Of a DNA stretch of 13,701 nt, positions 8,425 to 8,455 are shown piece by piece; positions within the stretch are counted from its first letter, which is position 1; each line of letters begins with the position of its first letter. Origin of the DNA: a virus (lineage: Duplodnaviria > Heunggongvirae > Uroviricota > Caudoviricetes); the IMG/VR virus record IMGVR_UViG_2660238190_000005, positions 1 through 13,701 of that record; one strand, 5' to 3'. A program made the translations under genes and the position numbers. Under the pieces are notes generated by a model, which saw nothing but the letters and a program-made list of their open reading frames with translations, did no database searches and was not told the DNA's origin.

Positions 8425-8455
8425 GCGCCCTACAGGACGCTTAGCTCTTTAACAA
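8425..8455 (+). promoter_or_regulatory. nut-like antitermination site: small hairpin followed by a boxA-like element GCTCTTTAACAA
   Basis: 8444..8455 GCTCTTTAACAA matches the rrn/lambdoid boxA core as I remember it (TGCTCTTTAACAA). It is preceded by the imperfect hairpin GCGCCC-taca-GGACGC (8425..8440). Located about 100 bp downstream of the pL-like promoter. Confidence 0.4.

What the first reader, a model, noticed from the sequence alone, without database searches (positions are those of the whole stretch)
8425..8455. rrn-type boxA (GCTCTTTAACAA) downstream of the pL-like promoter, without an obvious N-like gene
A 12-nt stretch matching the boxA core of rrn and lambdoid nut sites, as I remember it, lies about 100 nt downstream of the pL-like promoter and after a small hairpin. 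The first downstream ORF (68 aa) is not Arg-rich, so the antitermination factor, if any, is unclear. Read-through of the terminator-like structures at 9400..9560 into the HD-domain, xis and int operon might depend on this site.
Basis: partly seen in the sequence, partly recalled or inferred. Interest (0 to 1): 0.5.

Follow-up and report, generated by a model that had tools for sequence, protein, structure and literature searches.

The report
Host-type boxA in prophage early leader
An exact copy of the short RNA signal that E. coli uses to keep ribosomal-RNA transcription from stopping early sits in the early leftward leader of an SfIV-like prophage with no N-like gene, next to a conserved folded leader RNA not in Rfam, so this phage may use host factors alone to reach its excision and integration genes.

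Summary
GCTCTTTAACAA is at 8444..8455 (+), about 105 nt into the transcript of a near-consensus promoter (8306..8333) that follows the cI-like repressor of an SfIV-like prophage at tRNA-Thr.

It is not a chance match. It fits the tested functional consensus GYTCTTTAANA. It shares 18 nt with the phage T7 early leader. The same 17-mer recurs in about 80 different phage leader contexts and is always sense to a sigma-70 promoter.

The "small hairpin" is not a boxB. It is a generic intrinsic terminator that works on the opposite strand, probably stopping the convergent 144-aa gene.

No N-like protein and no boxB are present, so this is not a lambda-type nut site. The layout is rrn-like: hairpin, 1 nt, boxA.

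The unexpected part lies upstream. Positions 8350..8411 form a strongly covarying structured RNA at the 5' end of pL transcripts in more than 100 phage lineages. It is absent from Rfam and distinct from HK022 put. It is the better candidate for reading through the strong intrinsic terminator at 9398..9446.

Best reading: boxA loads NusB/NusE and makes pL transcription Rho-resistant across about 950 nt without a credible sense-strand gene. No function was tested experimentally.

The parts
7592..8266 (+). cI-like repressor gene (224 aa), the gene just upstream of the leader
   Evidence: Peptidase_S24, E = 1.5e-26. Annotated as repressor/cI in SfIV and SfV.
8278..8304 (+). Intrinsic terminator ending the repressor transcript
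   Evidence: Hairpin GAACCTGCTTCGGCAGGTTT followed by TTTTATACTT. Annotated as a terminator in SfV and Ayreon.
8306..8333 (+). pL-like sigma-70 promoter, TTGACA-16-CATAAT, with repeated ATGTACCC operator-like words
   Evidence: 11 of 12 consensus match. Annotated as a promoter in phage Ayreon at the homologous place.
8350..8411 (+). Structured leader RNA ('R1'). P1 pairs 8350-8354 with 8407-8411. P2 is the hairpin GGC-AGAAC-GCC. An invariant single strand CACGAAGUAGCCGC follows. P3 pairs CCUGG with CCAGG.
   Evidence: In a 47-sequence alignment, 9 of 13 pairs carry compensatory changes and 97.7% of cells are paired, against 75% in shuffles; 0 of 500 shuffles reach the covariation score. The covariance model hits 8339..8418 at 86.5 bits and nowhere else in the window, and does not hit the HK022 or HK639 put loci. 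No Rfam match at E <= 10.
8413..8442 (-). Leftward intrinsic terminator: AAGCGUCC-UGUA-GGGCGCUU followed by UUUUGUUGCU
   Evidence: Called on the minus strand only. Minus-strand RNA folds at -12.1 kcal/mol; plus-strand RNA at -7.5 with a C.A mismatch. The same asymmetry holds in 15 of 18 hairpin variants. In 47 of 64 unique contexts a minus-strand ORF ends within 120 nt.
8444..8461 (+). rrn-type boxA (GCTCTTTAACAA, 8444..8455) plus the TCTGGT extension shared with phage T7
   Evidence: Exact match to the rrn boxA present in all 5426 E. coli genomes and to GYTCTTTAANA. 18 nt identical to T7 813..830. Unpaired in the predicted fold. Recurs in about 80 unique phage contexts.
8501..8707 (+). orf68, the first translated gene of the pL transcript; Shine-Dalgarno GAGGAGG at 8488..8494
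   Evidence: phrog_1744, full length, E = 1.8e-33. No Pfam match. 2 Arg in 68 aa.
8679..9113 (-). Convergent 144-aa gene (SfIV orf-36 family), probably the gene served by the leftward terminator
   Evidence: phrog_5286, full length, E = 1.5e-90. Belongs to the largest of at least 3 unrelated families of minus-strand genes found right of the boxA cassette in other phages.
9224..9446 (+). STnc100-like sRNA region ending in a strong + strand intrinsic terminator (stem 9398..9438, then UCCUUUUU)
   Evidence: RF02076, 43.1 bits (gathering score 47), E = 4e-8. Terminator hairpin -20.5 kcal/mol, z = -3.4.
9660..12243 (+). Distal pL-direction genes: HD-type 5'-deoxynucleotidase, DUF551 protein, 101-aa ORF, xis, int
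   Evidence: phrog_318 and YfbR-like. HTH_17 excisionase and Phage_integrase. SfIV annotation.

Best explanation
The 12-mer is most likely a genuine, selected rrn-type boxA in the 5' leader of the prophage's leftward early (pL-like) transcript.

Proposed mechanism (inferred, not tested): as the RNA emerges, host NusB and NusE (S10) bind it. Together with NusA, NusG and SuhB they form the same kind of RNA-tethered elongation complex that forms on rrn leaders and on CRISPR leaders. This makes RNA polymerase resistant to Rho without any phage N protein.

That property is needed here. After the 68-aa ORF the transcript has no credible sense-strand gene for about 950 nt (8708..9659): it runs antisense to a convergent 144-aa gene and then through an sRNA-like region before the HD-domain, xis and int genes.

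The hairpin just upstream is a separate element that works on the other strand, as the intrinsic terminator for leftward transcription of that convergent gene.

The strong intrinsic terminator at 9398..9446 is probably overcome by the conserved structured leader RNA at 8350..8411, not by boxA. That RNA is a put-like device in position, though not in sequence.
For: Shown by tools:
- Exact identity to the rrn boxA found in every E. coli genome and to the mutationally defined consensus GYTCTTTAANA. No shuffle of the window contains the 12-mer.
- Correct strand, about +105 from an 11-of-12 promoter, and unpaired in the fold.
- 18 nt identical to the T7 early leader between promoter A3 and gene 0.3. 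Four sense copies in a Vectrevirus early region.
- The 17-mer occurs in about 80 unique phage contexts with unrelated flanks.
- Of 87 unique contexts, 41 have a 10-of-12 or better promoter within 200 nt upstream in sense. None has a promoter placed to read the element antisense.
- Downstream of the R1 leader, 31 copies are sense and 0 antisense.
- Next to the hairpin, 22 of 28 boxA-like sequences are exact. Five others differ only at the N position of the consensus. One (L277) carries GAT for GCT.
- In most temperate-phage contexts the cassette is followed by a minus-strand gene of 145 to 250 aa from at least 3 unrelated families. The pL transcript is therefore untranslated there.

Precedent: boxA alone protects untranslated CRISPR arrays from Rho (PMC7665894).
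Against: - No experiment was possible. NusB/E binding and read-through are inferred.
- Only 17 of 117 unique R1 leaders in the unbiased scan carry boxA, and many leaders have the hairpin without boxA. The element is therefore optional.
- Most temperate-phage copies are closely related, so their invariance partly reflects shared descent.
- The boxA lies between a minus-strand gene end and its terminator in many phages. A passenger role in that cassette is not excluded.
- The GC-skew profile shows no obvious C-rich rut region.
- BoxA can repress as well as antiterminate (PMC5725501).
Confidence: 0.55

Rival explanations
1. Passenger sequence. The 12-mer has no role in the pL RNA. It is part of a recombining terminator cassette, serving as the 3' untranslated spacer of the convergent gene or as the U-rich flank of a two-way terminator. 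Its likeness to boxA is inherited rather than selected here.
For: The hairpin is clearly a leftward terminator. In many phages a minus-strand ORF stops 24 to 43 nt right of the boxA start. Both strands show an A-rich 5' flank and a U-rich 3' flank around the hairpin. Temperate-phage copies are closely related.
Against: The same 17- to 18-mer occurs without this hairpin and without any minus-strand gene: in T7-like early leaders and 20 to 25 nt after consensus promoters. Orientation relative to promoters is 41 to 0. The right flank changes immediately after AACAATCTGG while boxA stays. 50 of 77 unique hairpin contexts do without it, so it is not needed for the terminator.
Confidence: 0.15
2. 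Nus-dependent repression, as at suhB. The Nus complex assembled on boxA stays tethered to RNA polymerase, loops the leader, hides the Shine-Dalgarno sequence of orf68 33 nt downstream and provokes Rho termination. BoxA would then damp rather than promote pL expression.
For: BoxA ends 45 nt before the ATG and 33 nt before GAGGAGG. This is similar to the suhB arrangement, where repression was shown and can act over more than 50 nt (PMC5725501).
Against: In most other phages carrying the cassette no + strand ORF follows. A minus-strand gene does instead. A translational target is therefore not general.
Confidence: 0.15
3. Attenuator. Read on the + strand, the hairpin plus UUAGCUCUUU is a weak terminator or pause that stops unmodified polymerases. 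Only transcripts whose polymerase was modified by the upstream leader RNA continue.
For: A-tract, hairpin and U-rich tail on the + strand. It lies directly after the conserved leader RNA.
Against: The + strand hairpin is only -7.5 kcal/mol with a C.A mismatch, and the U run is interrupted. The scan did not call it on the + strand. This reading does not explain the identity with T7 and other leaders.
Confidence: 0.1
4. Lambda-type nut site served by an unrecognised N-like protein.
For: The position matches nutL, just downstream of pL in a phage with lambda-like cI, cro and cII.
Against: No boxB-like hairpin 3' of boxA (fold z = +0.86). No arginine-rich protein in the pL operon. orf68 and the other ORFs have no N-like family match. 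The boxA is the tight-binding rrn form, not the weakened lambda form.
Confidence: 0.05

Closest known systems
rrn operon leader antitermination site of E. coli (boxB hairpin, boxA, boxC; NusA/B/E/G, SuhB, S4)
   Same: An identical 12-nt boxA. A hairpin immediately 5' of boxA (1 nt here, 3 nt in rrn). No phage protein needed. Precedes a long untranslated RNA. The tail ACAATCTG also occurs next to rrn boxC.
   Different: The hairpin here is built for the opposite strand. No UGUGUG boxC follows in this window. The element is in a prophage mRNA leader. Function is untested.
BoxA upstream of CRISPR arrays (Stringer et al. 2020, PMC7665894) and in the suhB 5' UTR (Baniulyte et al. 2017, PMC5725501)
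   Same: A lone boxA matching GYTCTTTAANA in a leader outside rrn, acting through host Nus factors only, either against Rho on untranslated RNA or as a repressor.
   Different: Those sites were validated by ChIP and mutation; this one was not. This one is phage-borne and coupled to a second conserved leader RNA.
Phage T7 early leader (between promoter A3 and gene 0.3) and relatives
   Same: 18 nt identical (GCTCTTTAACAATCTGGT), sense strand, 60 to 110 nt downstream of strong sigma-70 promoters.
   Different: T7 is a lytic phage with a different genome plan and no adjacent leftward terminator. I found no functional study of this T7 sequence in the library.
Lambda nutL / P22 nutL
   Same: Position just downstream of pL; contains a boxA.
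   Different: No boxB, no N. The element order is hairpin then boxA instead of boxA then boxB.
HK022 and HK639 putL antiterminator RNA
   Same: The neighbouring leader RNA (8350..8411) occupies the same place, starts about +10 of the pL transcript, is about 60 to 70 nt long, and occurs in a phage with no N.
   Different: No shared sequence motif, and a different architecture: a closing helix around two hairpins rather than two tandem stem-loops. The covariance model does not hit the put loci. There is no second copy on the pR side.

Membership tests
rrn-type BoxA (NusB-NusE binding RNA element) | Sequence matches the functional consensus (GYTCTTTAANA; rrn GCUCUUUAACAA) | tested here: met
   11 of 11 and 12 of 12 exact at 8444..8455. 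The reference was verified in 5426 of 5426 E. coli genomes. Consensus taken from PMC5725501.
rrn-type BoxA (NusB-NusE binding RNA element) | Lies on the transcribed sense strand downstream of a promoter, so that it appears in nascent RNA | tested here: met
   An 11-of-12 sigma-70 promoter lies 111 nt upstream on the same strand. Across phages, 41 of 87 contexts have a sense promoter within 200 nt and 0 have an antisense-directed one. Transcription itself was not measured.
rrn-type BoxA (NusB-NusE binding RNA element) | Single-stranded and accessible in the RNA | tested here: met
   Unpaired in the minimum-energy and centroid folds of 8415..8460.
rrn-type BoxA (NusB-NusE binding RNA element) | Binds NusB-NusE and recruits SuhB, NusA and NusG to RNA polymerase | not testable with these tools
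   Needs a gel-shift or ChIP experiment.
rrn-type BoxA (NusB-NusE binding RNA element) | Changes Rho-dependent termination or translation downstream when mutated | not testable with these tools
   Needs reporter assays with boxA mutants and bicyclomycin.
Lambda-type nut site | boxB stem-loop a few nt 3' of boxA | tested here: not met
   Only a 5-bp AU-rich stem with an 8-nt loop is present. The fold of 8444..8505 is no better than shuffles (z = +0.86).
Lambda-type nut site | N-like protein with an arginine-rich motif encoded in the operon | tested here: not met
   No ARM in any plausibly placed ORF. No N-like family match.
HK022-type put RNA (for the leader RNA at 8350..8411) | Shared sequence and structure with putL/putR (GAACGGCGCG..UAAACCAUGCGUCGG.., two tandem stem-loops) | tested here: not met
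   The alignment shows no shared motif beyond CAGGAUGA. Model R1 finds nothing in the HK022 or HK639 loci at E <= 10.
HK022-type put RNA (for the leader RNA at 8350..8411) | Cis-acting read-through of terminators, blocked by RNA polymerase beta-prime zinc-binding-domain mutations | not testable with these tools
   Needs genetics or in vitro transcription.
Intrinsic (Rho-independent) terminator (for the hairpin at 8423..8442, minus strand) | GC-rich stem followed directly by a U run on the transcribed strand, placed after a gene end | tested here: met
   An 8-bp stem at -12.1 kcal/mol followed by UUUUUUGUUG on the minus strand. It is the first minus-strand terminator after the 144-aa gene. In 47 of 64 unique contexts a minus-strand ORF ends within 120 nt.

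The most novel reading that the evidence does not exclude
N-less lambdoid prophages of enterobacteria, present in about a quarter of complete E. coli genomes, may control their leftward early operon with two host-only RNA devices in one leader. The first would be a previously undescribed class of cis-acting antiterminator RNA (R1, 8350..8411) that modifies RNA polymerase the way HK022 put does but with an unrelated fold. The second is an rrn-type boxA that adds Nus-factor protection against Rho. If so, the same 17-nt boxA shared with T7-like phages would mark a general phage strategy of borrowing the ribosomal-RNA antitermination machinery without any phage protein.
Probability: 0.3. Interest if true: 0.8.

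Novelty: new member of a known kind. Interest (0 to 1): 0.55.

Why it matters
Early gene control in lambdoid phages is usually explained by N plus nut sites, with HK022 put as the one RNA-only exception.

This prophage family has neither N nor put. Its leader region is present in 1392 of 5426 complete E. coli genomes and nothing is annotated there.

If the boxA is active, phages can use the host rRNA antitermination system directly, as CRISPR arrays do. That would make excision and integration gene expression sensitive to NusB, NusE and SuhB levels and to Rho inhibitors.

The adjacent covarying leader RNA would be a second, independent family of polymerase-modifying RNA. It is short, abundant and easy to test.

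Tried and rejected
- HK022 and HK639 put homology of the leader. I fetched both loci and aligned them by eye and with MAFFT. There is no shared motif and no covariance-model hit.
- A second (pR-side) copy of the leader RNA or of boxA in the window. None was found. The 2-mismatch hit at 7474..7485 (-) lies inside cro and is at chance level.
- Rfam. Only the tRNA passes gathering. At permissive thresholds nothing covers 8339..8460.
- An N-like protein. An arginine-rich scan and Pfam and PHROG scans of the pL-side ORFs were negative. The arginine-rich start of ORF 9264..9569 overlaps the sRNA-like structure and was discounted.
- King et al. 2011 (PMC3187212), which lists put-like RNAs, is not held. 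The put alignment in Hwang et al. 2022 is an image only. I therefore cannot exclude that R1 was noted there.
- The supplementary boxA list of Baniulyte et al. does not appear to include this leader. Their 50-nt limit would exclude it (boxA starts 57 nt from the ATG), but I read only excerpts of the list.
- The mEpimmI 'Nus-dependent non-lambdoid' phages have an N-like Gp17 and nut sites, so they are a different system.
- A GC-skew search for rut-like C-rich tracts was uninformative.
- Literature searches for a functional study of the T7 boxA found nothing.

Full report
**What the window is.** Positions 7500..9700 are 98.6% identical to Shigella phage SfIV and closely related to SfV and many E. 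coli prophages. The layout is:
- cro (7304..7501, -) and a cII-like gene (6703..7269, -), leftward;
- a cI-like repressor (7592..8266, +);
- a terminator (8278..8304);
- a near-consensus promoter, TTGACA-16-CATAAT (8306..8333);
- a rightward operon ending in xis, int and tRNA-Thr (12258..12333, -) next to a 417-aa host gene.

The promoter is therefore the pL equivalent. Relative to SfIV the window lacks about 1.3 kb, covering the yfdQ-like gene and part of its neighbour, just before the hairpin at 9546..9561.

**The observation.** GCTCTTTAACAA is at 8444..8455 (+) and is the only exact copy. No dinucleotide shuffle of the window contains it. It also matches GYTCTTTAANA, the consensus that Baniulyte et al. 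derived from rrn, suhB and mutational data (PMC5725501). I checked my recollection of the rrn leader against the genomes: GCCGCTGAGAAAAAGCGAAGCGGC-ACT-GCTCTTTAACAA-TTTATCAGACAATCTGTGTGGGCACTCG is present at a median of 7 places in 5426 of 5426 E. coli genomes. The site is therefore the rrn form of boxA, not the weaker lambda form. It starts 111 nt after the -10 hexamer and is unpaired in the predicted fold.

**Is it more than chance?** One exact 12-mer in one window could be luck in a genome-wide scan, so I looked at relatives.
- The identity with phage T7 extends to 18 nt (GCTCTTTAACAATCTGGT). In T7 it lies between the host-polymerase promoter A3 and gene 0.3.
- A Vectrevirus early region has four sense copies.
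It gave about 80 unique contexts with unrelated flanks. These include T7-like leaders, sites 20 to 25 nt after consensus promoters, sites after a different CCGGA/TCCGG hairpin, sites directly after an HK639-type put stem, and the A-tract plus GCGCCC/GGACGC hairpin seen here.
- Among 87 unique contexts with 200 nt on each side, 41 have a 10-of-12 or better sigma-70 promoter within 200 nt upstream in sense. None has one positioned to read the element antisense.
- In a scan that did not select for boxA (hairpin only), 28 of 77 unique contexts carry a boxA-like sequence. 22 are exact. Five differ only at the N position of the consensus. One has a single change inside it.

I conclude that the element is under selection as a sense-strand leader signal. 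One caveat applies: many temperate-phage copies are close relatives, so their invariance partly reflects shared descent.

**The hairpin.**
- As plus-strand RNA it has a C.A mismatch and folds at -7.5 kcal/mol.
- As minus-strand RNA it is a perfect 8-bp stem (the mismatch becomes G.U) at -12.1 kcal/mol, followed by UUUUUUGUUG.
- The asymmetry holds in 15 of 18 variants that differ in their loops.
- The same hairpin occurs in 50 unique phage contexts without boxA.
- In 47 of 64 unique contexts a minus-strand ORF ends within 120 nt to its right.

It is a generic leftward intrinsic terminator. In this window the first minus-strand gene upstream of it is the 144-aa ORF at 8679..9113 (phrog_5286, SfIV orf-36), and no other minus-strand terminator lies between them. 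In most other phages a minus-strand gene of 145 to 250 aa stops only 24 to 43 nt right of the boxA start. These genes come from at least three unrelated families. The right flank diverges immediately after AACAATCTGG. The roughly 45-nt cassette (A-tract, hairpin, boxA) therefore behaves as a backbone unit beside a swappable convergent "moron" slot.

**No N, no boxB.** orf68 (8501..8707, phrog_1744) has 2 Arg. No plausibly placed ORF has an arginine-rich motif or an N-like family match. The RNA 3' of boxA has no hairpin better than chance (z = +0.86). The order is hairpin, 1 nt, boxA, as in rrn (hairpin, 3 nt, boxA). It is not boxA then boxB as in lambda. The SfIV genome paper mentions only Q-type antitermination (PMC3851460).

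Between the promoter and the hairpin lies a 62-nt element (8350..8411) that BLAST finds just downstream of cI-like genes in phages of Escherichia, Shigella, Salmonella, Klebsiella, Citrobacter, Pantoea, Yersinia, Pectobacterium and Hafnia.
- A scan for its invariant core returned over 100 loci.
- In a 47-sequence alignment the consensus fold has a closing helix P1, an invariant hairpin P2, an invariant single strand CACGAAGUAGCCGC and a hairpin P3.
- 9 of 13 pairs show compensatory changes. 97.7% of cells are paired against 75% in shuffles. 0 of 500 shuffles reach the covariation score, and slid controls collapse.
- In 73 of 130 unique leaders a promoter-like site precedes it. Its -10 usually ends 15 to 18 nt before P1, across 53 different promoter sequences. 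The RNA therefore starts at about +10 of the transcript.
- It has no Rfam match.
- The covariance model finds one copy in the window (86.5 bits), none on the pR side, and none in the HK022 or HK639 put loci. The HK022 and HK639 put sequences share a different motif.
- The window's copy carries two departures from consensus: an A.C mismatch in P1 and G to A in the P2 loop.

By position and context this is a put analogue but not a put homologue. Its function is inferred only.

**Why antitermination is needed.** After orf68 the pL-direction RNA has no credible sense-strand gene from 8708 to 9659. It is antisense to the 144-aa gene. It then crosses a region resembling the sRNA STnc100 (43.1 bits, just under the gathering score of 47). 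That region ends in a 13-bp, -20.5 kcal/mol hairpin plus UCCUUUUU at 9398..9446, a strong + strand terminator. Untranslated RNA of this length is the classic Rho substrate. BoxA alone has been shown to protect untranslated CRISPR arrays from Rho through Nus factors (PMC7665894). By established knowledge, rrn-type complexes work mainly against Rho, whereas put-type RNAs also suppress intrinsic terminators (PMC9378689). This is the basis for the proposed division of labour: boxA against Rho, and the leader RNA against the intrinsic terminator.

**Rivals.**
- Passenger of the terminator cassette (0.15).
- suhB-like Nus-dependent repression of orf68, whose Shine-Dalgarno sequence is 33 nt downstream (0.15).
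- A weak + strand attenuator (0.10).
- A nut site with a hidden N (0.05).

BoxA is optional. Only 17 of 117 unique R1 leaders in the unbiased scan have it. That fits an auxiliary role.

**Verdict.** The hairpin belongs to the other strand, and the likely principal antiterminator is an overlooked structured leader RNA. As a boxA it is a new member of a known kind. The neighbouring RNA is the more novel object. Nothing here was tested experimentally.

Noticed in passing
window 8350..8411 (+); L008-L132 and others: A 62-nt structured RNA at the very 5' end of pL-type transcripts in over 100 enterobacterial phage lineages. 9 of 13 pairs are compensatory. It has no Rfam family, is distinct from HK022/HK639 put, and occurs on the pL side only. 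The window's copy has an A.C mismatch in P1 and a G-to-A change in the P2 loop.
   Followed up: yes
L011, L015, L024, L099, L004 and many others, about 20 to 70 nt downstream of the R1 RNA: A second conserved leader element (GCGCAGCAGGU..AACGUUCCGCCAGCCUGGCG..AGGGCA) follows R1 in many phages. In Klebsiella phage Kp4882-1 it occurs without R1, directly before the hairpin-boxA cassette. It is absent from this window.
   Followed up: no
L204 1195..1300; L232; L141 2600..2680; L006 about 1165..1210: In some phages an HK022/HK639-type put stem I (GUCGAACGGCGCGACUUUAAACCAUGCGUCGG) is followed directly by the same boxA 17-mer. In L204 downstream GACGCUGCAU could pair with AUGCGUC, which would place boxA in a loop. 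This would be a put-boxA hybrid leader.
   Followed up: partly
window 9224..9446 (+): The region resembles the Rfam sRNA STnc100 (43.1 bits against a gathering score of 47, E = 4e-8). It ends in a strong intrinsic terminator in the pL direction. SfIV annotates a protein (orf-34) across it.
   Followed up: partly
window 9445..9533 and 9546..9561: A 25-nt-arm inverted repeat (84% complementary, 39-nt loop) with no U run. It lies next to the junction of a roughly 1.3-kb deletion relative to SfIV that removed the yfdQ-like gene. The GC hairpin at 9546..9561 is the terminator that follows that gene in SfIV and Ayreon.
   Followed up: partly
window 1..5176 (+): Left of the replication genes the window carries + strand genes that are not in the SfIV layout: the end of an AAA_31 ATPase, several unknown ORFs and a 649-aa GmrSD-family type IV restriction enzyme (2404..4353). 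This looks like a defence-gene insertion or replacement in the prophage.
   Followed up: partly
E. coli complete genomes (H148-H155 and 1386 more): The leader (8340..8500) is found in 1392 of 5426 complete E. coli genomes, 587 of them at 80% coverage or more. RefSeq annotates no feature under it.
   Followed up: partly
rrn leader versus phage boxA (L006 1503..1530): The phage tail AACAATCTGG(TTTGTGTC) resembles the rrn leader with the 12 nt between boxA and boxC removed (GCTCTTTAACAA[TTTATCAGACAA]TCTGTGTGGG). This suggests a compact boxA-boxC in T7-like phages. The window has only the TCTGG part.
   Followed up: no
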